42,543 nt of DNA. Origin: Candidatus Rariloculus versatilis (lineage in GTDB: Bacteria; Pseudomonadota; Gammaproteobacteria; Steroidobacterales; Rariloculaceae). A program made the position numbers and the translations under genes. The stretch lies in contig JAQAJI010000013.1 of assembly GCA_028278665.1 (NCBI GenBank), positions 23,566 through 66,108 on the forward strand, given 5' to 3'. Every line of letters begins with the position of its first letter. Within the stretch, counting starts at the first letter, position 1. This document shows positions 2 to 22,463 of the stretch, one piece after another. The notes under the pieces are model-generated. The model saw only the letters and a program-made list of their open reading frames with translations, made no database searches and had not been told where the DNA came from.

Positions 2-883
2 GCGGCGCAGGCTCCTAGGAGCCTGCTGCGAACGTTTCGCGAACCGGCGTCTCGATCGACCGGGGATCCTTTCGGCGGTCTGGAGGTTCATCTCGAACGA
101 CGCCTCGCCACCGGCCGCATGACCGAAGTCTGGTTCGGTTGCTCTGGCGACGGGCATCCACGCGCGATCAAGACGCTCAAGCCCGACTGGCTTGCGAAGC
201 CCGGCGCCCGGGCAAGACTGCAGCGCGAGTACGAACTGCTTGGGAGTCTGCGCCATCCGCACATCGTCAGCGCAGAAGCGTTTATTGACGAGGCGGATTG
301 CGCGGCGATCGTTTGCGAGTATCTGGGCGGTGGCGACCTCGTGAGCCTCGCGGGAACTCCGCCGCGCCACTGGATCGCCGCCGTGCGCGATGTGCTCGGT
401 GCGATCGAGTGCCTGCATGACCGCGGTTTGGCGCACCGCGACGTCAAGGCGCGCAACGTGATGTTCGACGGTGAAGGCCGGGCGCGCCTGATCGATTTGG
501 GCTCCGCGGCCCGCATCGGCACTGCATGGACACATCACGGCACAACCGCGGCACACCGGCCCGATCAACCGCGGTCAGGCCGCGTGGGCGCGGAACAGGA
601 CCTCTACGCATTCGCCGTGCTGCTCTGTGAACTCCTGTCGGGGCGGCTGCCATTCGAGCAGGAGCCCGGCGCCGACACCGGGGCGGATACACCGTGGCTG
701 ACGTTCGAAACCAAAGGCCGCCTCGAACTCGCGGCCCAATGCAAGGACAGCCCGGAACTCGCCGCGCTCGGGCAACTTGTGCTTGCGGCGCTTGCATCCG
801 GCGGCGGGCCTGGAACCGGCAGCGTATTGCAGTTCTCCAATGTCATAGAATCAGTGCTCGCCAGCGAGTCCGAACAGCCGTGA
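2..883 (+). CDS. Hanks-type Ser/Thr protein kinase (true start upstream of ATG 119, uncertain or outside window)
   Basis: Frame is open from nt 2. LERRLATGRMTEVW is a subdomain I-like loop lying partly upstream of ATG 119. Also RAIK (II), QREYE (III), HRDVKARN catalytic loop, IDLG (DFG variant) and DLYAFAVLLCELLSGRLPF (IX). The stop overlaps the next start (GTGA 880-883). Confidence 0.85.
   Translation, partial: AAQAPRSLLRTFREPASRSTGDPFGGLEVHLERRLATGRMTEVWFGCSGDGHPRAIKTLKPDWLAKPGARARLQREYELLGSLRHPHIVSAEAFIDEADCAAIVCEYLGGGDLVSLAGTPPRHWIAAVRDVLGAIECLHDRGLAHRDVKARNVMFDGEGRARLIDLGSAARIGTAWTHHGTTAAHRPDQPRSGRVGAEQDLYAFAVLLCELLSGRLPFEQEPGADTGADTPWLTFETKGRLELAAQCKDSPELAALGQLVLAALASGGGPGTGSVLQFSNVIESVLASESEQP
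7..26. repeat. Perfect 20-bp palindrome GCAGGCTCCTAGGAGCCTGC centred on CTAG; matches the end of the ~70-bp palindromic repeat family
   Basis: 7-16 is the exact reverse complement of 17-26. GCGGCGCAGGCTCCT (2-16) resembles the right-arm ends at 33399-33410 and 37513-37527. Confidence 0.6.
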
Positions 884-2385
884 CCGAACGAGACCCGAGC
901 CCGCAACACGAACAGACCATCGTCGCGGTCAAGCCGGGGTTCGGCACCGCAAAGCGAGGGTCCGCCAGGCCGAGTCAGGCGAAACGACGGCTGCCGTGGC
1001 TCGCTCTTTCAGCCGCGGTCCTGGTTTTGCTCGCTCTGGCGGTGTTCTTCGTGCTGCCGAGCTGGGTCGAGGAACAGGCGGCAAACGTGCCCGTAGAGGC
1101 GCCGGCCGCCATCGCGGCGCCGGAGCCCGCGGGTCCGGTCCTGTCCGAAGAAGAACTCGCTGCACTCGAAGCTCGGGCAGAGTCGCTGCTGGCCGAACTG
1201 TTGCCGCAGCAGGCGCGGCTTGAGGAGTTGTCGGCGTCCGTTTGGGGCGGTACGCAATGGGAGCGCTACGAGGAAACGGCGCGCAGCGCCGATGACTCGC
1301 TGGTGGCCGATGCCTTCGCCGAAGCCGCGACGGCGTACGAGGCAGCGCTTGCCGTCGGCGAAGGCTTGCTCGAGCGTTCCGACGAGATCATCCGTGCGGC
1401 ACTGGACAGCGGCCTGCAGGCACTGGAGGCCGGCAACGCGGAACTCGCGATCGAACAGTTCGACCTGGTGCTCAGCATCGAACCCGGCAACGCAGCGGCT
1501 CAAGCCGGCCGTGCGCGTGCCGCGCGCCTGCCCGAAGTCATCGAGCTGGTTCGTGAGGGCGACGAGCTGCGCCAGGGGCGGCAATTTGCGGCCGCGGCCG
1601 ACGCCTACCGCGCGGCGCTCGCGATCGACGGGCGCTGGGACCCGGCGCGCACAGCCCTGACTGCCGTATTGGCCGACATCGAGCGCTCGAGCTTCGATGC
1701 GCTGCTCTCGGAGGGCTTTGCGGCGTTGGCGGACGAGGATTTCGACGAAGCGCAGTCACGCTTCACCGCGGCGCTGGCCATGCGGGCGGATTCCAGGGAT
1801 GCGCGTGACGGATTGACGCTGGCCGAGCAGGGCCTGGAACTTCAGCAGATCGAGATGGCCGAAGCCAGGGCGCTTGCCTTCGAACGACGCGAACTGTGGG
1901 ACCGTGCAATCGCGCAGTACGAGTCGGCGCTTGCGGCCGACGCGACACTGGAGTTCGCGCTCGCGGGTCTTGCGCGCTCGCGCGAGCGCAGCGACCTCGA
2001 CGCGAAGCTTGTGAACCTGATCGAGAACCCCGAATTGTTGTTGACCGATACTGTCCTTGCGGAGGCCGAAGCGCTTGCAGGACAGGCGCGTACGATCGCC
2101 GACCCCGGCGCGAGGCTCGACGGGCAACTCGTCCGCCTCGATGAGCTCATCCTGGCCGCGACGACGCCGTTGCCTGTGCAGCTTGAGTCCGACGAGCTCA
2201 CCGAGGTCACCGTCTATCGCGTCGGCCAGCTCGGCACGTTCCTGGCGACGCAGATCGAAGTCCGGCCGGGCAGCTACACGGTGGTTGGCAGCCGCAGGGG
2301 CTACAGGGACGTTCGCAAGACTTTCACTGTTCTGCCGGGCCGCGAGATGACGCCGATCAGCGTCATGTGCGTAGAGCCGATCTGA
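880..2385 (+). CDS. Membrane-anchored TPR-repeat protein with C-terminal PEGA-like beta domain
   Basis: GTG 880 is coupled to the kinase stop. TM segment WLALSAAVLVLLALAVFFVLPSW; TPR-like helices (AIEQFDLVLSIEPGNAAAQAG, AADAYRAALAIDG); C-terminal VRPGSYTVVGSRRGYRDV is PEGA-like. Confidence 0.75.
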   Translation: MTERDPSPQHEQTIVAVKPGFGTAKRGSARPSQAKRRLPWLALSAAVLVLLALAVFFVLPSWVEEQAANVPVEAPAAIAAPEPAGPVLSEEELAALEARAESLLAELLPQQARLEELSASVWGGTQWERYEETARSADDSLVADAFAEAATAYEAALAVGEGLLERSDEIIRAALDSGLQALEAGNAELAIEQFDLVLSIEPGNAAAQAGRARAARLPEVIELVREGDELRQGRQFAAAADAYRAALAIDGRWDPARTALTAVLADIERSSFDALLSEGFAALADEDFDEAQSRFTAALAMRADSRDARDGLTLAEQGLELQQIEMAEARALAFERRELWDRAIAQYESALAADATLEFALAGLARSRERSDLDAKLVNLIENPELLLTDTVLAEAEALAGQARTIADPGARLDGQLVRLDELILAATTPLPVQLESDELTEVTVYRVGQLGTFLATQIEVRPGSYTVVGSRRGYRDVRKTFTVLPGREMTPISVMCVEPI

Positions 2386-2405
2386 GCTCAGGAGGCCGGG
2401 AGCGG

Positions 2406-4844
2406 ATGAGCAATTCGAACGAGTGGATCCTGGCGACGAGCGAGTCGGGGTACACGCGGTATTTCGAGGCGGAGTCGCTGCCGGTCTCGATCGGCGGGAG
2501 CAGCGGCGACGATATCAGGCTCGGCAGTATTTCAGGGTCGGTGCAGGTCGGCGTGCTCGACGGCGTCTTTTTCGTACAGGCGGGCCGGACCACGACCAAC
2601 GTGCGGATCGGCGGCGAGCTGCTCAGAAGTTCGCGCCGGCTCGCCGACGGCGACGTCATCGCACTGGACAGCGCTCGCCTGAACTGTGCCATCGCCGCCG
2701 GAAAGCTGACGGTGTCGATCGAGGCCCGGGTCACCGCGGGCGACACCGCACCGCCCGATCTCGAGGAGCTCGCGCGTGCCGGCGACGAAGGCGGCGACGA
2801 GATCGCGATCGCGCCCGTCGCGTTTCGCTCCGGGGCGGGTGCGGTTCAACAGTCGCGTAGCAGGCGTCCGAGGGTGGCGACGATGGTCGTCGCGGCCGCA
2901 TTCGCCGTGCTCGCCGTGCTCGCTTGGTTCGCGTTCACCGCGAAGTCCGTGCAGCTCGTCTTCGAGCCGGCCGCCGACGAGTTCAGCCTGCCGTCAACCT
3001 TGTTCAAGTTTCAGCTCGGCGACCGGATGTTGCTGCGTTCGGGAACGCACGAGTTGTCCGCGCAACTTGAGGGCTACTATCCCCTCGATACCACCGTCGA
3101 GGTCGGCCCGTTGCCCGATCAGTCCTTCGAACTCCCGTTCACGAAGTTGCCGGGCCTGATCACGCTTCGAACCGAGCCCGAGGCGGGCGCCGAAGCAAGC
3201 ATTGAGGGCGAGTTGCTCGGCCAGACGCCGCTCGTCGATTTCGAGCTGGAACCCGGGGTGCACCGCATCGAGTTTGCGGCAGACCGATATCTGCCGGAGG
3301 TTCGCGAGCTCACGGTCGAGGGCGGCCGCGAGCGCCAGTCGCTGACGGCGGAGCTTACGCCGGACTGGGCGCCGGTGACGATCAGCAGCGTCCCGCCGGG
3401 CGCCGACATCGTCGTCGACGGTGAAACCGTGGGCGTCACGCCGACCGATGTCGAGATCACCGCCGGCGAGCGGCGCATCGAGGTCCGGCTCGGCGGCTAC
3501 AACGCCTGGGGCATGCTGCTCAATGTCGTCGCCGACAGCGCACAAAGTCTGCCGCTCATCACCCTGGATCCGGCCGACGGGCGCATCGAACTCGTCAGCG
3601 TCCCGAGCGAGGCGGCCGTGAGCGTCAACGGCGAGTATCGCGGCCGGACGCCGCTCGAACTTCGCCTTAGCCCGTCACGTACGCACGAGATCGTGCTGAG
3701 CCGGCCGGGCTATGTTTCACGAACACTCCAGTTGTCGGTCGCCGCCGACAGCGGACGCGTTGTGGAGCTCGAACTCGAGGCTCAATTGGGCGAGATCGTC
3801 GTGCAAAGCACGCCGCCCGGTGCGGAGATCTGGGTCGACGGCAACCGCGAGGCCTCGACGCCCGCGACGCTCAATCTGCTTGCGATCAGTCACGACATCG
3901 AGATTCGTCAGATCGGCTACGTACCGCAGGGCGCCGAAGTGACTCCGAGGCCCGGGTTTACCCAGACGCTCAATTTCGACCTCGAGGTGCTCGACGATGC
4001 CTCCGGCAGCGGCTATCCGCGCATCGTGCAAACGGCGATCGGGCAGGAACTCAGGCTCGTACCCGCGGGTACGTTTTCGATGGGCTCGTCGCGGCGCGAG
4101 CAGGGACGCCGTTCCAACGAGACACTGCGCGACGTGCAGATCAGCCGCGCCTTCTATCTCGGTGTGCGCGAAGTCAGCAACGCCGAGTTCCGGATGTTCC
4201 GTCAGGAGCACTATTCGGGCGAGTTCGCCAACACCTCGCTCGACGGCGACGAGCAGCCCGTGGTTCGGGTGACCTGGGAAGACGCCGTGATGTTTCTCAA
4301 CTGGCTCAGCGCGCGCGACGGCCTGCAACCGGTCTACGCGCCGACGACGACCTCGTGGGCGCCGATCCGGCCGCTCAGGAACGGCTACCGTTTGCCGACC
4401 GAGGCGGAGTGGGCCTGGGCGGCGCGCGCCGCGGAACGCGACGAGCCGCTGGTCTATCCCTGGGGTCCGCTACCGCCGCCGCCGGATCGCTCGGGCAACT
4501 ACGCCGACCTGTCGGCAGCCGCGATCCTGCCGACGACCCTCGTGACCTACAACGACGGGTTCGCGGTGACCGCGCCCACGGGCAGCTTCGAGCCGAACGT
4601 GCTCCGCATTTTCGATCTGGGCGGCAATGTGTCGGAGTGGCTGCAGGACTTCTACGAGGTCAGGGTCATCGCGCCGGAGACCCTCGAGATCGATCCCCTG
4701 GGGCCGGAAACCGGCAGGTTCAACATGATTCGGGGCGCGAGCTGGCGCAGCGCCACCGTGACGGACCTCAGGCTCGCCTACCGCAACTACGGATCCCAGC
4801 CTCGCGAAGATCTCGGTTTCCGTATCGCGCGGAATCTGGAATGA
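2406..4844 (+). CDS. FHA-like / TM / multiple PEGA / FGE-sulfatase (SUMF1-family) domain protein
   Basis: AGGAGG at 2390-2395 precedes ATG 2406. Degenerate FHA-like N-terminus, TM VVAAAFAVLAVLAWFAF, PEGA repeats (SVPPGADIVVDGETVGVTP, STPPGAEIWVDG) and FGE motifs VPAGTFSMGS, YRLPTEAEW, DLGGNVSEW, RGASW, LGFRIAR. Confidence 0.88.
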   Translation: MSNSNEWILATSESGYTRYFEAESLPVSIGGSSGDDIRLGSISGSVQVGVLDGVFFVQAGRTTTNVRIGGELLRSSRRLADGDVIALDSARLNCAIAAGKLTVSIEARVTAGDTAPPDLEELARAGDEGGDEIAIAPVAFRSGAGAVQQSRSRRPRVATMVVAAAFAVLAVLAWFAFTAKSVQLVFEPAADEFSLPSTLFKFQLGDRMLLRSGTHELSAQLEGYYPLDTTVEVGPLPDQSFELPFTKLPGLITLRTEPEAGAEASIEGELLGQTPLVDFELEPGVHRIEFAADRYLPEVRELTVEGGRERQSLTAELTPDWAPVTISSVPPGADIVVDGETVGVTPTDVEITAGERRIEVRLGGYNAWGMLLNVVADSAQSLPLITLDPADGRIELVSVPSEAAVSVNGEYRGRTPLELRLSPSRTHEIVLSRPGYVSRTLQLSVAADSGRVVELELEAQLGEIVVQSTPPGAEIWVDGNREASTPATLNLLAISHDIEIRQIGYVPQGAEVTPRPGFTQTLNFDLEVLDDASGSGYPRIVQTAIGQELRLVPAGTFSMGSSRREQGRRSNETLRDVQISRAFYLGVREVSNAEFRMFRQEHYSGEFANTSLDGDEQPVVRVTWEDAVMFLNWLSARDGLQPVYAPTTTSWAPIRPLRNGYRLPTEAEWAWAARAAERDEPLVYPWGPLPPPPDRSGNYADLSAAAILPTTLVTYNDGFAVTAPTGSFEPNVLRIFDLGGNVSEWLQDFYEVRVIAPETLEIDPLGPETGRFNMIRGASWRSATVTDLRLAYRNYGSQPREDLGFRIARNLE

Positions 4845-4898
4845 TCTGCCATTGGCGCGGTCTAATGTGAGTGTTCGCACCCGGTGCGAGGAAGAGCG

Positions 4899-5135
4899 AT
4901 GAATACGATCCGGATACTTCTCGCGGTACTCGGCCTGAGCCTGGTCGCGCTCGTGACGATCGGCCAGGAAGCCGAGGGCGAGCCCGAGAGCCCGCCTTCG
5001 GCCGCCGAGGAGTCTGAGGCAGAGCCCACCGTGGAGCCTGCCGGGGACGCTCCGCGGGGCGCTTCCGATGAAGTGTTCATTCCGACCGTCGAGGTCCAGG
5101 CGGACGAGGAAGTCGTGTTTCCGGTGGACATCTAG
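4899..5135 (+). CDS. Small exported acidic protein ending ...VFPVDI (78 aa)
   Basis: Signal/anchor MNTIRILLAVLGLSLVALVTIG, E/P-rich linker and C-terminal EVFIPTVEVQADEEVVFPVDI. Purine-rich GAGGAAG upstream. Confidence 0.7.
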   Translation: MNTIRILLAVLGLSLVALVTIGQEAEGEPESPPSAAEESEAEPTVEPAGDAPRGASDEVFIPTVEVQADEEVVFPVDI

Positions 5136-5153
5136 CGCGCAAATCTCACCAAG
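5132..5153 (+). repeat. Solo copy of the MITE terminal inverted repeat (CTAGCGCGCAAATCTCACCAAG)
   Basis: 21/22 identical to the TIR at 29408-29429. Its TAG is the stop codon of the upstream gene. Confidence 0.8.
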
Positions 5154-5240
5154 CCCGCGCTTCTCACTTGCCCGGCGGTGCCGCTTGGCGCTCGGCCGGG
5201 AAATTGACGGCGGACACCAAACCTTGAGGACTCTTGCAAG

Positions 5241-6021
5241 ATGAGACGCACTTTTTTCGGCGAATTTCTCTTTCAGGCATTTGCGCTGATCGTCATGGTC
5301 ATTCTCGTGCATGCGTTCTACGTGACGAGTGTGCGGCCCAATGCGACGTCGATTCTCGAGGAGCAGGCGCTCAGGATTCAGCAGGAGGAGAACTACACGC
5401 CGGAACGCTCGTTCTGGGTGCTCATCAGGGACTTCGAACAGGAAGCCTGTTTCATCCTCATGTTCTGGGCGTTCGCGATCATGGGTTACAAGGCCGTCTT
5501 CATGTACAACGAGCGCACCTTGTTGCAGCGGGAGTTCCTGCCGGTGCCCGACGGCGTTCGAATACTTCCCGAAGACACGCGCGAGTACGGTCGCGCGATC
5601 GAGTCGCTGCCCGAACGGGTCAGGGCCATGCTGCTGCCCCGCGTGCTCTTGTCGTCGCTCGAGCGTTTCGGGTCGACGCGCAACGTTCAGGATGTGTCGT
5701 CGGTGGCGAATTCACTGTGCGAGGCCGAGGGCGAGCGGCTGGAATCGGAGTTGTCGATGATCCGCTACATCGCCTGGGCCATACCTTCTGTGGGGTTCAT
5801 ATGCACCGTACGGGTTATCGGTCAGGAGCTCGCCGAACCGCAGCGCGCCGTCGAAGGGGACAACCCGGGCGTAACCGACGTTCATAGCACTTCTGATCTC
5901 GATCGTCGTCATGTTCCTGGTCCACCAGTTGCAGTTGTTTCAGGAGCGTCTCGTGTTCGATACGCAGACCTACGTCGACCACAACCTCATACGCCACATG
6001 CGAAGCCGCGGCGCCACCTAG
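5241..6021 (+). CDS. MotA/TolQ/ExbB-family proton channel protein; frameshifted at ~5877 in this sequence
   Basis: N-terminal TMs and ELSMIRYIAWAIPSVGFIcTVR (ExbB/TolQ TM2 P-x-x-G-x-x-G-T motif). The C-terminal TM3/tail TFIALLISIVVMFLVHQLQLFQERLVFDTQTYVDHNLIRHM continues in the +1 frame from 5878 to TAG 6019-6021. Confidence 0.8.
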
Positions 6022-6035
6022 CCGAGCGAGGGGAG

Positions 6036-7436
6036 ATGCCTGCACGCGCGATCGAAATCAACGATGCCGGCCTTGTTGTTGCCGATGCGTCGGGCATCCT
6101 GGCCGTCGAGCCGGGCTACGCGCTGGTCGAGAAGGGCGCGATCACGACGGGATTGCAGGCATACGGGCAGGCGCGTCTGAAGCCGCGCCAGGTCAGCAAC
6201 AGCTTCTGGACAAATCTCAGTCTGGAGAAGGGCAGTGCGGGCGTTGAGGGCGTGCCCAACTCCGCGGAACTTGCCTACAAACAGCTTGGCGCCCTGTGGA
6301 GCAGGTTCGCCGCCTCGACCGACGACGTTGTGCTCATCGTGCCGGGCCATTACGGTCAGGCCCAGCTCGGACTGCTGCTCGGTCTCGCCGAGGAGTGCGC
6401 GGTACCGGTACGCGCCATGGTTGATGCTGCGGTCGCGGCAAGCCACCGGCCGTATCCGGGCCGCGAACTTGTCTACGTCGATGCGGGACTGCATCGGGTG
6501 TCCGTCACGGCGCTCGCGCAGGGAGACGACGTGAGCGTGCGGTCCGAACAGCGCCTGGACACCACCGGACTCGCCGGTCTCAATGACCTGCTTGCCCGGC
6601 GGGTCGCCGAGATGTTCGTGTTCGCGAGCCGCTTCGATCCGTTTCACGATGCCGCCAGCGAGCAGCTGCTCTATGACCGCTTGCCCGAATGGCTTGCGTC
6701 GCTGCACGAGCAGGGCTCGGCGGTGCTTGCGCTGCCGCACGGCGCCGATGAAGTCGAGGTTCAGATCGAGCGAGGACAACTGCTGAAGGTGGCGCTCGGC
6801 TTTTACAAGGCGCTGTTGCAGCTCATCGCACAAACGCGCGAGACCCGATCCGGACTGGTCGTGCAATTGTCCGACCGGTTGGCTCGCTTGCCTGGCGTCA
6901 TGGGCGAGTTGGCGCGCCTGGACGATTCGGAGGTGGTCGGTCTGCCGCCGGGCCACGCGGCCTGCGCCGCGCTCGAGGGCTTCGCTGCAATTGACACGCG
7001 CTCGGGCGTGAAGCTGCTCAGACGCATGTCCTGGCGCGCCGAGCCCGTGTCGGCCGTGGGATCCATGGCGGAAATCGCTGACACAGCGATCGTCGTGTCT
7101 GACACGCCCGTTCCGACCCACGTCGTCTATCGCGGCGTGGCTCATCCGATCGACGGGGCGGGTCTCGTGATCGGCCGGTCCGATGCCGAGGATCGGCAGG
7201 TCATCGTCGTGGACGATCAGCCCGGCGGCGTGTCCCGGTCGCACTGTGAACTCAGGCTCAGCAACGGCGAACTCAGGCTGCGCGACCTGTCCAGCTATGG
7301 TACTTTCGTGAACGAAAAGCGCGTCTCCGGAGAGGCAACGCTGCAGCCGGCGGACATCATCCGGATCGGCACTCCGGGCGCGGAGCTTCAGGTCGTAACG
7401 GTCAGGGCCCCGGAGCGGTCACATGGCACGCCGTAG
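6036..7436 (+). CDS. Degenerate Hsp70/actin-fold domain fused to C-terminal FHA domain (466 aa)
   Basis: Own RBS (GAGGGGAG) and ATG 6036. AIEINDAG / VVLIVPGHY / VRAMVDAAVAA / LVYVDAGLHRVSV parallel the Hsp70 NBD motifs. FHA: LVIGRS...GVSRSHCEL...LRDLSSYGTFVN. Confidence 0.75.
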   Translation: MPARAIEINDAGLVVADASGILAVEPGYALVEKGAITTGLQAYGQARLKPRQVSNSFWTNLSLEKGSAGVEGVPNSAELAYKQLGALWSRFAASTDDVVLIVPGHYGQAQLGLLLGLAEECAVPVRAMVDAAVAASHRPYPGRELVYVDAGLHRVSVTALAQGDDVSVRSEQRLDTTGLAGLNDLLARRVAEMFVFASRFDPFHDAASEQLLYDRLPEWLASLHEQGSAVLALPHGADEVEVQIERGQLLKVALGFYKALLQLIAQTRETRSGLVVQLSDRLARLPGVMGELARLDDSEVVGLPPGHAACAALEGFAAIDTRSGVKLLRRMSWRAEPVSAVGSMAEIADTAIVVSDTPVPTHVVYRGVAHPIDGAGLVIGRSDAEDRQVIVVDDQPGGVSRSHCELRLSNGELRLRDLSSYGTFVNEKRVSGEATLQPADIIRIGTPGAELQVVTVRAPERSHGTP

Positions 7437-8520
7437 GGAATTCAACGTCATTTCGATGTCGTTTCTCGACGCGATGACCTGCGGTTTCGGCGCCGTGATC
7501 CTGTTTTTCATGATCATCACGGCCAACATCGATCTGAGGCGCGATACCGTGCTCGACGATGTGGCCGCCGAGGTCGACCGCATGGAAATCAGGGTCGTGG
7601 CCGGCCGCAGGAACCTCGTGCAGATCAGGGAGGATCTCGCGCGCCTCCTCGAGGATCGGTTCACGACACGCGGCGTCAAGCAACAGATCATGGCGGAGAT
7701 CGAGACGACGCGAGAGGATCTGGTCACGCAGGCCGAAGCCGCCGACACGCGCGACGATCTCATCGAGCAACTGCGGGCGGATCTGGCGGCCCTGGAAGAG
7801 GAGACCGAGCAACTCGCGCTGACCGACGACACGGCCGAAGAGGCCGGCGCCTCGATCCGCAGCGTACAGGGTGAGGGTTACCGCCAGTACCTGACAGGGC
7901 TGCGCATGGGCGGCCAGCGGATCGTCATTCTCGTCGACGTCTCCGCGAGCATGCTCGACCGTACGCTCGTCAACATCATCCGGCGCCGCAACCTGCCTGA
8001 CGTGCAAAAGCGCCAGGCGCCGAAGTGGCAGCAACTCGTCAACACCGTGGACTGGCTCACGGCGCAGATTCCGCCGGGCACGCAGTTCCAGGTGATCGCG
8101 TTCAATGATGAAGCCTGGTCGCTCGTCGAAGGGACCGACGGGCAGTGGCTTACGGCCAGCGACGCAAGTCAGCTCGACGAAGCCGTGCGCCGGCTGCGCG
8201 AGGAGACGGTCGCCGAAGGCCCGACGAGCCTGCACTCGGCATTCCAGGCAGCCCGGCGCCTGGAACCCCGACCCGACAACATCTACCTGCTCGTCGACGG
8301 CCTGCCGACCATGGGCGGCGTCCAGCCGACCCGTAACGGCGTCACGAGCAGGGAGCGGCTCGGGCATTTCGAGCGGGCGTCGCGCGAGCGGCCGATCGGT
8401 ACTCCCGTCAACGTAATACTGCTGGCGATGGAAGGCGACCCGCTCGCAGCGCCCGCCTACTGGCAGCTCGCGCTCGAGAGCGGCGGCTCGATGATGGCAC
8501 CGGCGGAGGACTGGCCGTGA
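7423..8520 (+). CDS. ExbD/MotB-like TM + coiled coil + vWA domain protein (A)
   Basis: MARRREFNVISMSFLDAMTCGFGAVILFFMII (basic N-terminus, Asp in TM), heptad-rich stalk, MIDAS DVSAS ... GPT ... LLVDG. Confidence 0.85.
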   Translation: MARRREFNVISMSFLDAMTCGFGAVILFFMIITANIDLRRDTVLDDVAAEVDRMEIRVVAGRRNLVQIREDLARLLEDRFTTRGVKQQIMAEIETTREDLVTQAEAADTRDDLIEQLRADLAALEEETEQLALTDDTAEEAGASIRSVQGEGYRQYLTGLRMGGQRIVILVDVSASMLDRTLVNIIRRRNLPDVQKRQAPKWQQLVNTVDWLTAQIPPGTQFQVIAFNDEAWSLVEGTDGQWLTASDASQLDEAVRRLREETVAEGPTSLHSAFQAARRLEPRPDNIYLLVDGLPTMGGVQPTRNGVTSRERLGHFERASRERPIGTPVNVILLAMEGDPLAAPAYWQLALESGGSMMAPAEDWP

Positions 8521-9527
8521 GCAGGAAGAAACGCCGCGGCATAGAGACGCTGAGCCTGTCGTTCCTCGACAGCATTTCCTGTGGTTTCGGGGCGATCATC
8601 CTGCTGCTCGTGATCACGAAGCTCTTCGAGCCGATCCGGCTCGAGGAGAGCAATCAGGAACTGGAGGGACTGCTCGCACGTTACGAGCAGGAACTCACGG
8701 AGATACTCGGCGAGACCGAGACGGTGCAACGCGAACGCGTCACGACCGCCGAGACCGTCGAGGAAGATCAGGTCCAGGTCCTCGAGCTGCAGCAGGAACT
8801 CACGCGCATCCGTTCGATTCTGCTTGACCGCCAGGACGACGAGACGGTCGCTGACGAACTCGCCGGCCGGCTCGCGGCCGCCAAGCAGTCGCTGACCGAG
8901 GAGATGGAGCGCCTGCTCGCCAATCAGGTGCCCAATGTCGAGGACTACGCGATCGGCGGCGTCCCCGTCGACAGCGAGTACATCATCTTCATCATCGACA
9001 CCTCCGGCAGCATGCGCAGTTACGCCTGGGACCGGGTCCAGCGGCAGATCAGTGAAACGCTCGACGTGTATCCCACCGTCAAGGGCATGCAGATCATCAA
9101 CGACGAGGGGACGTATCTCTTCAGAAGCTATCGGGGCCAGTGGATACCGGATACGCCGGCCCGCCGACGGGCAATCATCGATTCCCTGCCGAACTGGAAC
9201 GCGTTTTCCGATTCGAGTCCGCGGGAGGGCATTCTCGAGGCGATCGACAGGTTCTACGATCCCGACAAGAAGATCTCGCTGTATGTGTACAGTGATGACT
9301 TCGCGCCAACATCGACGATTCGCCAGGTCGTGCGCGAAGTCGACCGGCGCAACAGGCTCGACGAGGATGGCAATCGCCGCGTCAGGATTCACGCGGTCGC
9401 CTTCCCGGTCTACTGGGACGTCATGGGCGACCTCGTCTCGTCCGCGCGCTACGCCACGCTCATGCGGGTGCTCTGCCAGCGCAACGGCGGAACCTTCGTG
9501 GCGCTGCCCTCGCGCCGCGACATCTGA
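8517..9527 (+). CDS. ExbD/MotB-like TM + coiled coil + vWA domain protein (B)
   Basis: GTGA overlap with the previous gene. LSLSFLDSISCGFGAIILLLVI, coiled-coil stalk, MIDAS DTSGS ... YSDDF. Confidence 0.85.
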   Translation: MSRKKRRGIETLSLSFLDSISCGFGAIILLLVITKLFEPIRLEESNQELEGLLARYEQELTEILGETETVQRERVTTAETVEEDQVQVLELQQELTRIRSILLDRQDDETVADELAGRLAAAKQSLTEEMERLLANQVPNVEDYAIGGVPVDSEYIIFIIDTSGSMRSYAWDRVQRQISETLDVYPTVKGMQIINDEGTYLFRSYRGQWIPDTPARRRAIIDSLPNWNAFSDSSPREGILEAIDRFYDPDKKISLYVYSDDFAPTSTIRQVVREVDRRNRLDEDGNRRVRIHAVAFPVYWDVMGDLVSSARYATLMRVLCQRNGGTFVALPSRRDI

Positions 9528-9790
9528 ACGCTCGCAGGCTCCGCCAGCCTGCAACCTGGGGCATCCGCCCGGCCGCCGGCAAGAACAGCCTGGATCGTTG
9601 CTGGAAGACGCCCGCGCCGGCGACAGCCGATCAACGCGCCTTGAACCGCGACTGAGCCGCGTTGCGCGTTTCCTGCCAGAATTGATCATCATTCGGGCAT
9701 CGTATGGTCCGGATTCGGCCCGGAATTGCCTTGCCGCGGCGCTCCAATGGCAGGTGTCAGAAGACAGCTGGACACACCAAGGAGCGAACC

Positions 9791-10531
9791 ATGACGAAAA
9801 ATATCCTGATACTGGCGTTGGCAGCCGGGCTTGCGAGCCCCGCCTGGACCGCCGAGAACAACGCAGCACCGAAGGAGGAGAGCATCGGCGTCGGCAGCGG
9901 CGTGGTAGTCGGCGCGCTCGCAGGCGGGCCGGTCGGCGCCATCGTTGGCGCTGCAATGGGCGGTTGGCTCGGCGACAGATTCCACCGCGAGCGCTCGGCA
10001 AAGCTTCAGTTCGAGCGCCAGTCCGAACAGGCCCGCCTCGAATGGGAGCGGGCGCAGCTCGAGGCCGATGAACTGCTGGCCAGGCTCGAGGAGAGCAACG
10101 CCGATCTCGGCCAGCTCAGGTCCGAGTGGCGTGCCGCGCAGGCTAACTACCGCAACGCGCTGCAGCAGGCGCTCGACACGCAGATCTACTTTCGCACCGG
10201 CGAGAGCGAACTCGAAGACGGAACCGGTGAACGCCTGGGCCGAATTGCCGGACTGATCGGCGAACTCGCCGATCTGACCGTCGTCGTCGAAGGCCATGCC
10301 GATGCGCGCGGCGCGGCGGACTACAACGAGCAGTTGTCGACTGCACGGGCACAGGCCGTTCGCGATGCCCTCGTGACGGCCGGTGTCTCGCCGGGCCGGA
10401 TCTTCTGGGTCGCCGAGGGCGAGCGTCATTCGACGGCCGACGAGAAGGACCTCGATGCCATGGCGCTCGACCGGCGCGTGAATCTGAGCATCGTGGAACG
10501 GAGCGCGGCGGACCGCATCGCGCAGCAGTAG
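9791..10531 (+). CDS. OmpA-family peptidoglycan-binding protein with glycine zipper (PdsO-like architecture)
   Basis: AAGGAG RBS, signal peptide, glycine zipper GVGSGVVVGALAGGPVGAIVGAAMGG, coiled coil and OmpA_C motifs EGHADARG..YNEQLSTARAQAV..DRRV. Confidence 0.85.
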   Translation: MTKNILILALAAGLASPAWTAENNAAPKEESIGVGSGVVVGALAGGPVGAIVGAAMGGWLGDRFHRERSAKLQFERQSEQARLEWERAQLEADELLARLEESNADLGQLRSEWRAAQANYRNALQQALDTQIYFRTGESELEDGTGERLGRIAGLIGELADLTVVVEGHADARGAADYNEQLSTARAQAVRDALVTAGVSPGRIFWVAEGERHSTADEKDLDAMALDRRVNLSIVERSAADRIAQQ

Positions 10532-10590: not shown

Positions 10591-10620
10591 GGGCCGCGTC
10601 AGGGATGGCGCGGCCCTTTC
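10591..10620. terminator. GC-rich hairpin between convergent ompA-like and bioD genes (possible terminator)
   Basis: GGGCCGCGTCA-GGGA-TGGCGCGGCCC followed by TTTC. The U-tract is short. Confidence 0.5.
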
Positions 10621-11382
10621 TCATTCGCGGGTCGCGTCAAGGTACGGCGCGACAAGCGGCAAGAGTTCCGGATACGCAGCACCATCGCCGCGCCGACGGG
10701 GCAGGGCGATGATCGGCGTTGGAGCGAGGAAACGCTCGAGAACCTCGCGAGTCTCAGCGAGCGGAACCGGCTGCTCGAGCGACTCGCTGACGATGACGCC
10801 AGCGAGTTCGACGCTCTGCGCCCGAAGGGCCCCGGCCGCTGTCAGCGTGTGGCTCAAGGTGCCGAGGTAGCTGCCCGTGACGAGCAGCGCAGGTGCGCCG
10901 AGCGCCGCGATCCAGTCGACGACCGTATGCCGCCCGTCGAGTGGCACCATGACGCCGCCGATACCTTCGATGAGCGTAAAGTCGTAGCCGTCGGATGCAC
11001 GGCAGAAGCTCAGTAACCTGTCAAACGGGATGTGTTTGCCTTCTCGCGCGGCCGCCATGTCGGGCGAGAGCGGCGCGGCGAACCTCCATGGCGACACCGC
11101 ATCGAGCTCAGCGGTCGCGGGTTCGAAACCCTGTGCGGCGAGCAGACGGCCGGTGTCGCTTGCCTTGCGCTCGGCGGCGTCGAAGCCCGTTGCGACCGGT
11201 TTGAGGGCGCGCACGCGAAGCGATGTACGGCTGAGTTCCTCGAGCAGCGCGCACATGACGAAGGTCTTGCCAACCTCCGTGCCCGATGCCGTCACAAAGA
11301 CCGTACTCTTCGTTCGGCCGGTTTCGGCGGACCGCGCATCCCGACCGGCGTCTCTGCGCTGGCTCATCGGCACCGTTGTCAT
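10621..11382 (-). CDS. bioD: Dethiobiotin synthase
   Basis: FVTASGTEVGKT P-loop, LKPVATG, APLSP, LIEGIGG, YLGTLSHT. Overlaps the bioF stop. Confidence 0.93.
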   Translation of the reverse strand: MTTVPMSQRRDAGRDARSAETGRTKSTVFVTASGTEVGKTFVMCALLEELSRTSLRVRALKPVATGFDAAERKASDTGRLLAAQGFEPATAELDAVSPWRFAAPLSPDMAAAREGKHIPFDRLLSFCRASDGYDFTLIEGIGGVMVPLDGRHTVVDWIAALGAPALLVTGSYLGTLSHTLTAAGALRAQSVELAGVIVSESLEQPVPLAETREVLERFLAPTPIIALPRRRGDGAAYPELLPLVAPYLDATRE

Positions 11383-22303: not shown

Positions 22304-22463
22304 TGTTGCAGCGCTCCTTCTTGAGATCGTCACCGATTAACGCGCGTCGTGCTTCAGGGCTCCCCGACGGCATCTCGCTACCGTCGTGGCAGAAACGAAA
22401 TCGCGTGCTTCGCGCCGGTCGCGCTTCAGGATTAGTCCAACGCTCATTGCTACACTACGAACC

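What the first reader, a model, noticed from the sequence alone, without database searches (positions are those of the whole stretch)
2..10531. Candidate undescribed envelope machine: ion-channel motor + twin vWA stators + kinase/FHA switch + PEGA/FGE scaffold
Seen: nine co-oriented genes, several translationally coupled (GTGA at 880-883 and 8517-8520; overlap 7423-7436). They encode a kinase, TM-TPR-PEGA, FHA-like-TM-PEGA-FGE, a small exported peptide, MotA/ExbB, Hsp70-like-FHA, two ExbD-like-vWA proteins and OmpA. Established: MotA/ExbB/TolQ plus an Asp-bearing single-TM partner form ion-driven motors (MotAB, ExbBD, TolQR, AglRQS, ZorAB). Non-catalytic FGE-fold proteins act in Bacteroidetes gliding/T9SS (GldK/GldJ) and in T6SS activation (TagR with kinase PpkA and Fha1). 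Inference: this is a proton-powered periplasmic machine gated by Thr phosphorylation, for adhesion/motility, secretion, uptake or contact sensing. No TonB, TolA/B, flagellar, T6SS core or Zorya effector genes are in the window, so it fits none of the named systems. More components may lie left of nt 1.
Basis: partly seen in the sequence, partly recalled or inferred. Interest (0 to 1): 0.88.

Follow-up and report, generated by a model that had tools for sequence, protein, structure and literature searches.

The report
Conserved proton-motor operon with vWA rotor
This is a real, widely conserved but functionally unknown cell-envelope gene cluster built around a MotA/TolQ-type ion channel and two von Willebrand-A proteins that probably replace the usual stator partner; the motor core was proposed in print in 2025, the rest of the machine was not.

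Summary
The nine co-oriented genes are there, with the stated overlaps. Comparative genomics shows a conserved operon, not chance neighbours. In 36 loci from two proteobacterial classes the order is: lipoprotein A, lipoprotein B, TM-helical protein, TM-PEGA-FGE, small secreted peptide ending FPxDI, MotA-like, vWA1, vWA2. The cluster therefore extends two genes left of nt 1. Kinase (9/36), Hsp70-like protein (22/36; FHA region 13/36) and OmpA (6/36) are accessory.

Both vWA proteins have an invariant Asp in their single TM helix and an intact MIDAS motif. [quoted passage not shown] The MotA-like family keeps two invariant Thr that align with TolQ. No ExbD/TolR gene is in the cluster.

A TolQ-like gene next to a heterologous pair of Asp-TM vWA genes was already described, function unknown, in Mol Biol Evol 2025 (PMC12204202). 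"Undescribed" is therefore only partly right. The other partners were not found in print.

The window's MotA-like gene carries a 26-nt deletion that is absent from four other runs' assemblies, so it is probably an assembly error.

Verdict: a new variant of the 5:2 ion-driven motors; interest 0.72.

The parts
2..883 (+). Ser/Thr protein kinase. An accessory module. Its 5' end is hidden in the N run left of the window.
   Evidence: Pkinase 6.5e-27. The translation shows HRD and DLG motifs. N run. Found in 9 of 36 loci. In 4 of those 9 (L007, L010, L043, L052) it shares one open frame with the next gene.
880..2385 (+).
   Evidence: TM segment at residues 41-59. TPR_2 is below its cut-off and there is no PEGA hit. 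Found in 33 of 36 loci.
2367..4844 (+). FHA-like cytoplasmic domain, one TM helix, four PEGA domains and a non-catalytic FGE-fold domain.
   Evidence: PEGA 4.7e-45, FGE-sulfatase 1.5e-37. The N-terminal profile hits FHA domains at 1.8e-4. The two Cys of human FGE align to Ser and Val. None of the 30 homologue C-termini printed shows Cys in that motif. Found in 33 of 36 loci.
4884..5135 (+). Small secreted protein: signal peptide, acidic low-complexity linker, and a conserved C-terminal motif that ends FPVDI at the stop codon.
   Evidence: Small ORFs with the same C-terminus lie in the FGE-MotA gap of the other loci. An ORF ending [FWM]PxDI-stop on the cluster strand occurs in 31 of 36 loci.
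5241..6021 (+). MotA/TolQ/ExbB-type channel gene. As assembled here it is broken by a 26-nt deletion after 5875, with a cluster of substitutions at 5801-5865.
   Evidence: Frames. Alignment to L003, L004, L005 and L011. Contigs of 4 of 4 runs carry the 26 nt and the conserved letters. The intact orthologue hits PF01618 at 3.2e-14. T189 and T222 are invariant.
6036..7436 (+). Cytoplasmic Hsp70-NBD-like domain followed by a canonical FHA domain. Accessory.
   Evidence: AF2 mean pLDDT 85.5. Foldseek finds DnaK/Ssb/BiP NBDs at E 1e-16 to 1e-18, TM-score 0.73-0.76 against DnaK NBD chains. The profile hits Hsp70 NBDs at 2e-4. FHA 2.7e-14. Found in 22 of 36 loci.
7423..8520 (+). vWA1: an N-terminal TM helix with invariant Asp16, a coiled coil of about 90 residues, and a vWA head with MIDAS D172-x-S174-x-S176.
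   Evidence: Found in 36 of 36 loci.
8517..9527 (+). vWA2, a paralogue of vWA1: TM helix with invariant Asp18, coiled coil, and a vWA head with MIDAS D161-x-S163-x-S165.
   Evidence: Found in 36 of 36 loci.
9704..10531 (+). Glycine-zipper / OmpA-type peptidoglycan-binding protein. Accessory, found mainly in close relatives.
   Evidence: OmpA 3.2e-18. PdsO TIGR03789 scores 134.8 bits, below its cut-off of 152.2. Found in 6 of 36 loci.
10591..10616 (+). Terminator-like hairpin after the last gene.
   Evidence: 1 site found, 0.6 expected from shuffles, so this is weak. The next gene (10621-11382) is on the minus strand.

Best explanation
The locus encodes an ion-driven (most likely proton-driven) inner-membrane motor of the MotA/TolQ/ExbB 5:2 kind. 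The usual Asp-bearing partner (MotB, TolR or ExbD) is replaced by a heterodimer of two paralogous vWA proteins.

Each vWA protein has one TM helix with an invariant Asp, inferred to sit in the channel. Each continues as a parallel coiled coil of about 90 residues into the periplasm, and ends in a vWA head with an intact metal-ion (MIDAS) site.

The motor belongs to a conserved operon of eight core genes:
- two lipoproteins, encoded left of the window;
- a single-pass helical protein;
- a single-pass protein with four PEGA domains and a non-catalytic FGE-fold head;
- a small secreted acidic peptide with an invariant FPxDI C-terminus;
- the MotA-like channel;
- vWA1 and vWA2.

Inferred working: ion flow turns or pulls the vWA dimer. 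Its heads then apply force to, or exchange, a periplasmic or outer-membrane partner held by the PEGA-FGE scaffold and the lipoproteins. The acidic FPxDI peptide is the most obvious candidate ligand for the MIDAS sites.

In this lineage an added cytoplasmic layer probably controls assembly or activity through Thr phosphorylation. It consists of the Ser/Thr kinase, the FHA-like N-terminus of the FGE protein, and the Hsp70-NBD-like protein with a canonical FHA domain.

Shown here: the gene content, its conservation, the motifs, the Hsp70 fold, and the predicted vWA1-vWA2 dimer. Inferred: the 5:2 assembly, the ion coupling, the partners of the heads, and the cellular output.
For: Conservation:
- tblastn with the window's proteins finds the same order in 10 named loci.
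- It finds the same order in 20 unnamed gammaproteobacterial loci.
- It finds the same order in 6 further loci, 4 of them from another proteobacterial class.
- Over these 36 loci the counts are: vWA1 36, vWA2 36, gene 2 33, FGE 33, lipoprotein B 32, MotA-like 32, peptide motif 31, lipoprotein A 25.
- Two of the loci with missing genes are cut by contig ends (L012, L044).
- In the three loci without a MotA-like gene, exactly one orthologue lies elsewhere in the same genome, E 1e-80 to 1e-122.
- Lipoprotein B is found elsewhere in the two genomes tested.

Motor features:
- The intact orthologue hits PF01618 above its cut-off.
- T189 and T222 are invariant in 22 sequences and align with the two Thr of TolQ in the 'GTVWG' and 'IATA' stretches.
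- The TM motif [SA][FY][LIV]DxxxC[GAS][FLI]G is present in 29 of 30 vWA1 and 29 of 30 vWA2 sequences.
- No ExbD-family gene is in the cluster. The genome's 4 other MotA_ExbB genes each have ExbD genes beside them on other contigs.

The vWA dimer:
- Complex prediction gives a median score of 0.78, with the best of 3 controls at 0.00. That mark was reached by 58 of 80 solved complexes and by 2 of 110 mismatched pairs.
- The three runs agree in at least 75% of their contacts, and the partner's pLDDT is at least 74.
- The interface follows a heptad pattern at residues 40-131 of vWA1 and 42-133 of vWA2, plus contacts between the heads.
- Metagenomic proteins fuse a vWA1-type head and a vWA2-type head in one chain.

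The phospho-module:
- The kinase is fused to gene 2 in 4 loci.
- In alignment A2, canonical FHA residues (GR, SxxH) occur in 7 of the 8 rows from kinase-bearing loci and in 0 of the 9 rows from kinase-less loci.

Print: PMC12204202, section 8 and the Fig. 4 legend (read), proposes the same motor core and reports AF3 models with the Asp pair inside a Thr ring.
Against: - No MotA-vWA complex was modelled here.
- The TM helix of the vWA proteins shows no detectable homology to this genome's TolR/ExbD (hhalign E 0.59 over 2 columns). The likeness is only at motif level.
- The MotA-like profile matches solved TolQ only at E 0.19.
- The window's own MotA-like gene is broken as assembled. Contigs can hide rare variants, so a real deletion in part of the population is not excluded.
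- Kinase, Hsp70-like/FHA and OmpA are absent from most loci, so they cannot be core.
- The partners of the vWA heads, the peptide's role and the output are guesses.
- The fold of lipoprotein B gives only weak matches: PelC, LptE, the TolB N-domain, FlgT and DUF330, at E 8e-4 to 2e-2 with TM-scores of 0.56 or less.
- No phenotype or expression data were found.
- Identity with the paper's family rests on its description, not on a sequence comparison.
Confidence: 0.62

Rival explanations
1. A secretion or surface-motility apparatus analogous to the GldLM-GldKN part of type 9 secretion and gliding. The motor's periplasmic arm would drive an FGE-fold ring or scaffold under the outer membrane to move or export a surface protein. 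The FPxDI peptide or another protein would be the cargo.
For: The FGE domain's best NCBIfam hit is GldK/PorK at 2.1e-28. It also matches solved PorK/GldK chains at about 5e-13. The FGE fold is non-catalytic, as in those proteins. A 5:2-type channel with a long periplasmic dimer is present.
Against: The GldK score of 99.8 bits is far below the cut-off of 350. Here the FGE domain is anchored in the inner membrane through a TM helix and PEGA domains; it is not a lipoprotein. No GldL, GldM, GldN or Sov/PorV-type hits were seen among the cluster's proteins. No cargo signal is known.
Confidence: 0.15
2. A sensory or signalling device rather than a force transducer. The vWA heads would bind a periplasmic ligand or envelope-damage cue. 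The channel and the cytoplasmic Hsp70-like/FHA/kinase layer would then report it inward, comparable in logic to TagQRST-PpkA-Fha1.
For: Metagenomic proteins carry a BlaR1-type Peptidase_M56 membrane domain followed by a vWA1-type head (52% identity) and a vWA2-type head. That places the same head pair on a known type of signal transducer. FGE fold plus kinase plus FHA recalls TagR-PpkA-Fha1; PMC13713981 (passages read) identifies TagR residues 127-359 as FGE-sulfatase-like and models a TagR/TagQ complex with the periplasmic domain of PpkA.
Against: The kinase is in only 9 of 36 loci, and canonical FHA residues appear only in kinase-bearing loci. There is no transcription factor or other output domain in the core. 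An ion channel with a conserved Asp/Thr set is costly for a mere sensor. TagH TIGR03354 scores 32 bits against a cut-off of 120.
Confidence: 0.15
3. An anti-phage defence system of the Zorya type, that is, a MotAB-like sensor with effectors.
For: It has a MotA-like channel with an unusual partner. The OmpA protein gives weak ZorB hits at 6.9e-8, and the kinase matches PD-T4-6/Mad6 models, which are generic kinase models.
Against: No ZorA, ZorC, ZorD or other PADLOC hit for the seven other proteins, and no PHROG hit. Sequence conservation is high (62-84% identity among the top 120 of more than 5000 homologues). It is present in every sampled member of some families (f16 3/3, f30 3/3). Order is stable across two classes. 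No nuclease or other effector domain is present. The flanks are housekeeping genes.
Confidence: 0.04
4. The genes are unrelated neighbours, and the pattern is an artefact of reading raw sequence.
For: None found.
Against: The same order recurs in 36 loci from two classes. Components that are displaced still occur in the same genome.
Confidence: 0.01

Closest known systems
TolQ-like + paired 'transpore-helix' vWA genes (Mol Biol Evol 2025, PMC12204202, section 8 and the Fig. 4c-d legend; these parts were read)
   Same: A single TM helix with a conserved Asp, a C-terminal vWA domain, heterologous pairs, tight linkage to a tolQ-like gene, no tolR/exbD/motB nearby, mainly Proteobacteria, function unknown. 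All of these were seen here.
   Different: The main text holds none of the words PEGA, FGE-sulfatase or kinase, and the Fig. [quoted passage not shown] It does not report the two lipoproteins, the FPxDI peptide, the Hsp70-like/FHA protein or OmpA in the parts I read. The figure and supplements could not be seen. Identity with its Idiomarina seed was not tested by sequence.
TolQR-TolA / ExbBD-TonB
   Same: PF01618 channel with two invariant Thr that align to TolQ. An Asp-bearing TM partner. Presumably uses proton motive force to act across the periplasm.
   Different: No ExbD/TolR-family domain and no detectable homology of the partner. No TolA/TonB-type third protein. The partner is a heterodimer with a coiled coil and vWA heads. 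The hydropathy profile suggests an extra N-terminal pair of TM segments, as in MotA (an inference).
MotAB / PomAB flagellar stator
   Same: A channel of probable four-TM layout with a large cytoplasmic loop. An Asp near the cytoplasmic end of the partner's TM helix. An OmpA-type peptidoglycan-binding protein is encoded in this lineage.
   Different: The peptidoglycan-binding domain is on a separate, non-core protein (6 of 36 loci). No flagellar genes were found among the 20 further large ORFs of the window that were scanned.
GldLM-GldK/PorK of type 9 secretion and gliding
   Same: A 5:2-type motor with a long periplasmic dimer, together with a non-catalytic FGE-fold protein.
   Different: All scores are below the family cut-offs. 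The FGE domain is anchored in the inner membrane through PEGA repeats. No GldL, GldM or GldN.
TagR-PpkA-Fha1 threonine-phosphorylation pathway of the Pseudomonas H1-T6SS (PMC13713981; passages read)
   Same: A periplasmic FGE-fold protein, a Ser/Thr kinase and an FHA reader occur in one locus.
   Different: No T6SS genes were seen in the window. The module is present only in a minority of loci. Here the FHA domain is attached to an Hsp70-NBD-like domain.
Zorya (ZorAB + effectors)
   Same: A MotA-like channel used outside motility.
   Different: No ZorA, ZorC or ZorD hits. The distribution and conservation look like those of a housekeeping system.

Membership tests
MotA/TolQ/ExbB proton channel (PF01618) | Pfam domain above the gathering score | tested here: met
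   The intact orthologue L005:7793-8599 scores 53.2 bits against a cut-off of 22.9. The window's own copy, broken as assembled, gives no hit.
MotA/TolQ/ExbB proton channel (PF01618) | Conserved Thr in the two last TM helices lining the pore (the role of these Thr is taken from PMC12204202 and from recall) | tested here: met
   T189 and T222 are invariant in 22 sequences. Both align to Thr of solved TolQ, although that match has only E 0.19.
MotA/TolQ/ExbB proton channel (PF01618) | Pentamer around a dimer of the partner's TM helices | not testable with these tools
   Seven chains and about 2000 residues exceed the limits of complex prediction.
TolQ-like + paired TPH-vWA family of PMC12204202 | Single TM helix with a conserved Asp, and a C-terminal vWA domain | tested here: met
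   Motif in 29 of 30 vWA1 and 29 of 30 vWA2 sequences. D16 and D18 are invariant, and so is the MIDAS DxSxS.
TolQ-like + paired TPH-vWA family of PMC12204202 | A heterologous pair next to a tolQ-like gene, with no tolR/exbD/motB nearby | tested here: met
   The pair is in 36 of 36 loci, and the MotA-like gene in 32 of 36 loci or elsewhere in the same genome. No ExbD hit in the cluster. The genome's ExbD genes lie on other contigs.
TolQ-like + paired TPH-vWA family of PMC12204202 | Sequence homology to the paper's seed (Idiomarina) | not tested
ExbD/TolR/MotB | Family domain, or profile homology of the partner | tested here: not met
   No PF02472 hit. hhalign of A3 against this genome's TolR/ExbD gives E 0.59 over 2 columns.
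Formylglycine-generating enzyme (catalytic) | The two active-site Cys | tested here: not met
   They align to Ser and Val. The motif RG[SA]SW... carries no Cys in any of the 30 homologue C-termini printed.
GldK/PorK (TIGR03525) | Score above the equivalog cut-off; a lipoprotein | tested here: not met
   99.8 bits against 350. The protein has an internal TM helix and no lipobox at its start.
Hsp70 | Nucleotide-binding-domain fold | tested here: met
   Foldseek E 1e-16 to 1e-18, TM-score 0.73-0.76 against DnaK NBD chains. The model's mean pLDDT is 85.5.
Hsp70 | Substrate-binding domain and intact ATP-binding loops | tested here: inconclusive
   There is no substrate-binding domain; an FHA domain follows the NBD instead. 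Of the phosphate-loop positions, only D10 is nearly invariant in alignment A2. ATP binding was not assessed.
Zorya | ZorA and ZorB with ZorC/D or ZorE/F/G | tested here: not met
   Only weak ZorB hits, on the OmpA protein. No ZorA or effector hits.
Proteobacterial dedicated sortase system (PdsO, TIGR03789) | Score above the cut-off | tested here: not met
   134.8 bits against 152.2. No search for a sortase was made.
T6SS TagH/Fha (TIGR03354) | Score above the cut-off | tested here: not met
   32.1 bits against 120.25.

The most novel reading that the evidence does not exclude
This is a further class of trans-envelope force-transducing machine, beside Ton, Tol-Pal, the flagellar stator and GldLM. 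A MotA5-vWA1-vWA2 motor turns or pulls a coiled-coil arm of about 13 nm (length estimated from the ~90-residue coil). Its twin MIDAS heads grip the invariant FPxDI carboxy-terminus of a dedicated secreted peptide, or another acidic ligand. They work against an inner-membrane PEGA-FGE scaffold and two lipoproteins to act on the outer membrane. In some lineages a kinase / FHA / Hsp70-NBD-like layer serves as a clutch on the cytoplasmic side.
Probability: 0.35. Interest if true: 0.85.

Novelty: new variant of a known kind. Interest (0 to 1): 0.72.

Why it matters
Ion-driven 5:2 motors power flagella, TonB-dependent uptake, Tol-Pal envelope maintenance, gliding and type 9 secretion, and Zorya defence. 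Here the same kind of channel is joined to a different kind of partner, a vWA heterodimer, and to a fixed set of seven other proteins that have no assigned function.

The family is not rare.
- vWA1 was found in 36 of 400 sampled gammaproteobacterial genomes, in 30 of 321 genera. One of the 36 is the window's own genome and one is the unpublished G039.
- In a sample of the phylum, the vWA2 profile was found in 16 genomes of one family of another class.
- The vWA2 profile finds 436 clusters at E <= 1e-30 among 1.84 billion representative proteins.
- vWA1 has more than 5000 hits in a 5.8-billion-protein collection.

The parts list given here turns "a predicted motor of unknown function" into a set of direct experiments:
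- the eight core genes;
- the Asp, Thr and MIDAS residues;
- the FPxDI peptide;
- the predicted heterodimer.

The window's organism is held mainly by sponge-associated samples. A role in envelope stability or surface interaction in symbionts is possible, but nothing here shows it.

Tried and rejected
- **PADLOC** and **PHROGs** gave nothing specific. I dropped the defence and phage readings.
- **NCBIfam** hits to GldK, PvdO, TagH and PdsO are all below their cut-offs. I did not file the locus under any of these.
- **Kaur et al. 2020** (PMC7159879; passages read) describes vWA/FGS/Hsp70 conflict systems. The word MotA occurs nowhere in it, and its systems centre on MoxR or GTPases. It is not this system.
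- **A diversity-generating retroelement** as the cause of the clustered substitutions at 5801-5865: rejected. The changes are not specific to A, and other assemblies carry the conserved letters.
- **Programmed frameshift in the MotA-like gene**: rejected. Orthologues are in a single frame.
- **PDB sequence searches**: the vWA1 profile gave only coiled-coil hits. The MotA-like profile gave only TolQ, at E 0.19.
- **ESM Atlas** for lipoprotein B returned only unnamed lipoprotein clusters.
- **Foldseek** for lipoprotein B gave weak small-lipoprotein folds only. I treat that as a lead.
- **Looking for named cultured carriers** through a distant homologue gave almost no names: one Candidatus Kentrum and one Methylophaga MAG.
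- **~700-aa 'longer' forms**: one, P0241, was checked and is a complete vWA1 followed by a complete vWA2 in one ORF. P0242 and P0244 are of similar length and were not checked. These may be gene-calling read-through and are not used as evidence of fusion.
- **Literature searches**. Only PMC12204202 treats a tolQ-like gene with paired vWA genes. Its figures and supplements (S1.7) could not be seen and may show the neighbouring genes.

Full report
**What is in the window.** Nine genes lie on the + strand between nt 2 and 10531.

- **Kinase, 2-883.** Pkinase 6.5e-27. Its start is hidden by a run of N directly left of the window.
- **880-2385.** A single-pass membrane protein with a TM segment at residues 41-59. 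The TPR and PEGA labels could not be confirmed: TPR_2 scores 18.7 bits against a cut-off of 27, and there is no PEGA hit.
- **2367-4844.** Four PEGA stretches (4.7e-45) and an FGE-sulfatase domain (1.5e-37), with a TM segment at residues 170-188. A profile of its N-terminal domain hits FHA domains: Rv0020c FHA at 1.8e-4, and Ki-67.
- **4884-5135.** An 83-residue protein with a signal-like start.
- **5241-6021.** The MotA-like gene.
- **6036-7436.** A domain that folds as an Hsp70 nucleotide-binding domain, followed by a canonical FHA domain (2.7e-14). The AF2 model has pLDDT 85.5. Foldseek gives E 1e-16 to 1e-18 and TM-score 0.73-0.76 against DnaK NBD chains. The profile hits Hsp70 NBDs at 2e-4.
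- **7423-8520 and 8517-9527.** Two vWA proteins.
- **9704-10531.** A glycine-zipper/OmpA protein (3.2e-18).

A terminator-like hairpin lies at 10591-10616, and the next gene is on the other strand. The 20 further large ORFs of the window that I scanned are housekeeping or unrelated: biotin, proline and riboflavin synthesis, KatG, a gyrB/parE-type gene, and others.

**A flaw in the assembly.** The MotA-like gene is not intact in the window.

- Frame 0 runs to about 5875, and the last TM helix is in frame +1.
- Against four relatives (L003, L004, L005, L011) the window lacks 26 nt. It also has a cluster of substitutions in the roughly 95 nt before the gap (11 differences from L005), which change invariant residues.
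- I laid the contigs of four public runs from four studies on 5241-6500. All four carry the 26 nt behind 5875 and the conserved letters at 5801-5865. None showed the window's form.
- Contigs can hide rare variants, so a minority allele is not excluded. A local assembly error is the simplest reading.
- The intact orthologue hits PF01618 MotA_ExbB above its cut-off. The window's copy does not.

**The cluster is conserved, and larger than the finding.** The window is G000:C28:23566-66108. Upstream lie two lipoprotein genes, at L002 12164-13525 and 13526-14881.

tblastn with all the window's proteins found the same order in three sets of loci:

- 10 named MAG loci, including a Candidatus Rariloculus chromosome;
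- 20 unnamed gammaproteobacterial loci;
- 6 more loci, four of them from a family of another proteobacterial class.

Counts over the 36 loci:

| Gene | Loci (of 36) |
|---|---|
| vWA1 | 36 |
| vWA2 | 36 |
| Gene 2 | 33 |
| PEGA-FGE | 33 |
| Lipoprotein B | 32 |
| MotA-like | 32 |
| ORF ending [FWM]PxDI-stop | 31 |
| Lipoprotein A (its C-terminal motif) | 25 |
| Hsp70-like | 22 |
| Hsp70-like match reaching the FHA region | 13 |
| Kinase | 9 |
| OmpA | 6 |

L012 and L044 are cut by contig ends. In L048 only the motor genes were found within the 20 kb. Where the MotA-like gene was missing from a locus (L006, L053, L055), exactly one orthologue lies elsewhere in that genome. Lipoprotein B was found elsewhere in the genomes of L048 and L044.

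The core is therefore eight genes. Kinase, Hsp70-like/FHA and OmpA are add-ons.

**The small peptide.** In nearly every locus the gap between the FGE gene and the MotA-like gene holds a short ORF. It has a signal peptide, an acidic low-complexity stretch, and a C-terminus of the form F-x-P-[ST]-E-x-[IV]-x-x-D-x-x-[VI]-x-F-P-x-D-I, ending at the stop codon. By my own rough estimate, not computed by a tool, a five-residue motif plus a stop would occur by chance about 0.01 times per locus. 31 of 36 is far beyond that.

**Lipoprotein A** has a similar build: a low-complexity region followed by a conserved C-terminal motif, DDD[IV]VARQLREAA..E.DP.LREKLWEEYR.YK.

**Motor features.**

- vWA1 and vWA2 are full-length paralogues (hhalign probability 99.8, E 2.6e-30).
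- Each has one TM segment, at residues 14-32 and 16-34, with an invariant Asp in the motif SFLDxxxCGFGA. The motif is present in 29 of 30 vWA1 and 29 of 30 vWA2 sequences. D16 and D18 are invariant.
- Each keeps the MIDAS DxSxS motif as invariant columns.
- The MotA-like family has invariant T189 and T222. In the only motor match to solved structures (TolQ, E 0.19), both align with Thr of TolQ.
- The genome has four other PF01618 genes, each with ExbD-family genes beside it on other contigs. This cluster has none.
- The vWA TM helix shows no profile homology to this genome's TolR/ExbD (E 0.59). 'ExbD-like' is therefore an analogy at motif level.

**The vWA pair as a dimer.** Complex prediction on alignments of the two proteins gave a median score of 0.78, with the best of three controls at 0.00. 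That mark was reached by 58 of 80 solved complexes and by 2 of 110 mismatched pairs. The runs agree in at least 75% of their contacts, and the partner's pLDDT is at least 74. This supports binding; it does not show it.

The interface is a heptad pattern from residue 40 to 131 of vWA1 and from 42 to 133 of vWA2, plus contacts between the C-terminal parts of the heads.

Independently, metagenomic proteins of about 740-760 residues join three parts in one chain: a BlaR1-type Peptidase_M56 membrane domain, a vWA1-type head (52% identity) and a vWA2-type head. This argues that the two heads work as a unit, and that the unit can serve as a periplasmic binding module.

**The FGE domain** matches human FGE (1e-21) and PorK/GldK (about 5e-13). 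The two active-site Cys align to Ser and Val, and no Cys is seen in that motif in the 30 homologue C-termini printed. It is a binding fold, not an enzyme.

**The phospho-module.**

- The kinase shares one open frame with gene 2 in 4 of the 9 kinase-bearing loci.
- In the alignment of Hsp70-like proteins, the canonical FHA residues occur in 7 of the 8 rows from kinase-bearing loci and in none of the 9 rows from kinase-less loci.
- Kinase and a working FHA reader therefore travel together, as a lineage-specific control layer. They cannot be part of the basic mechanism.

**What is known.** Four full-text searches found one relevant paper: Mol Biol Evol 2025, PMC12204202. I read section 8 with the Fig. 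4 legend, and passages found by term.

[quoted passage not shown] They come mostly in heterologous pairs, carry a conserved Asp in a 'transpore helix', and occur mainly in Proteobacteria and Verrucomicrobia.
- It shows AF3 models that put the Asp pair inside the Thr ring, and it states no function.
- This locus meets every feature of that description that I could test.
- The words kinase, PEGA and FGE-sulfatase do not occur in its main text.
- Its figures and supplements were not visible to me, so the neighbouring genes may be drawn there.

**Mechanism I commit to (confidence 0.62).** This is a proton-driven 5:2-type motor whose inner dimer is vWA1/vWA2. Its coiled-coil arm carries twin MIDAS heads to the outer part of the periplasm. 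There they act on a partner organised by the PEGA-FGE protein, gene 2 and the two lipoproteins. The FPxDI peptide is the leading candidate ligand.

The output is open. Envelope maintenance, surface interaction, export and sensing all remain possible. The rivals are a T9SS-like export or motility role (0.15), a sensory role (0.15), defence (0.04) and chance (0.01).

**Distribution.**

- vWA1 was found in 36 of 400 scored gammaproteobacterial genomes, in 30 of 321 genera, counting G000 and the unpublished G039.
- The vWA2 profile was found in 20 of 401 genomes sampled from the phylum. 16 of these are in one family of another class.
- 436 representative clusters reach E <= 1e-30.
- The window's sequence is held mainly by sponge-associated samples.

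Noticed in passing
window 5783-5886: A 26-nt deletion after 5875, with clustered substitutions at 5801-5865, breaks the MotA-like gene. Contigs of four other runs carry the intact form, so this is probably a local assembly error of this MAG.
   Followed up: yes
L002 14956-15000 (just left of window nt 1): A run of about 45 N hides the start of the kinase gene. It is either a scaffold gap or a withheld stretch.
   Followed up: partly
L002 12164-13525 and 13526-14881 (upstream of the window): Two lipoprotein genes belong to the operon. One is low-complexity with a conserved C-terminal motif (..VARQLREAA..DP.LREKLWEEY..). The other is about 400-450 aa, with an invariant lipobox Cys and a long helical hairpin.
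   Followed up: yes
proteins P0243, P0245, P0246, P0247 (metagenomic): The hit table shows all four at about 740-760 aa with Peptidase_M56 (BlaR1-type) plus vWA domains. P0243, the one checked, has the M56 membrane domain, then a vWA1-type head, then a vWA2-type head in one chain. That is a different use of the same head pair.
   Followed up: partly
L007, L010, L043, L052: The kinase and the following TM-helical protein are in one open reading frame, that is, fused. They are separate but overlapping genes in the window.
   Followed up: partly
L010 and protein P0241: Homologous clusters or proteins occur in MAGs labelled Spirochaetales and Acidobacteriota. This is either a range wider than Proteobacteria or mis-binning.
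   Followed up: no
window 22386-26549 (+): A 1387-aa protein with an AAA_35 (STAND-like) ATPase domain, a proprotein-convertase P-domain and WD40 repeats. Unusual for a 2.9-Mb genome.
   Followed up: no
L051: The MotA-like gene sits after vWA2 instead of before the Hsp70-like gene. In G275 (L048) the lipoprotein part of the operon lies about 25 kb from the motor genes on the same contig.
   Followed up: partly
L002 7753-9783 (-): A 676-aa ORF upstream that, by eye, looks like a squalene-hopene cyclase (hopanoid synthesis). No family search was run on it.
   Followed up: no
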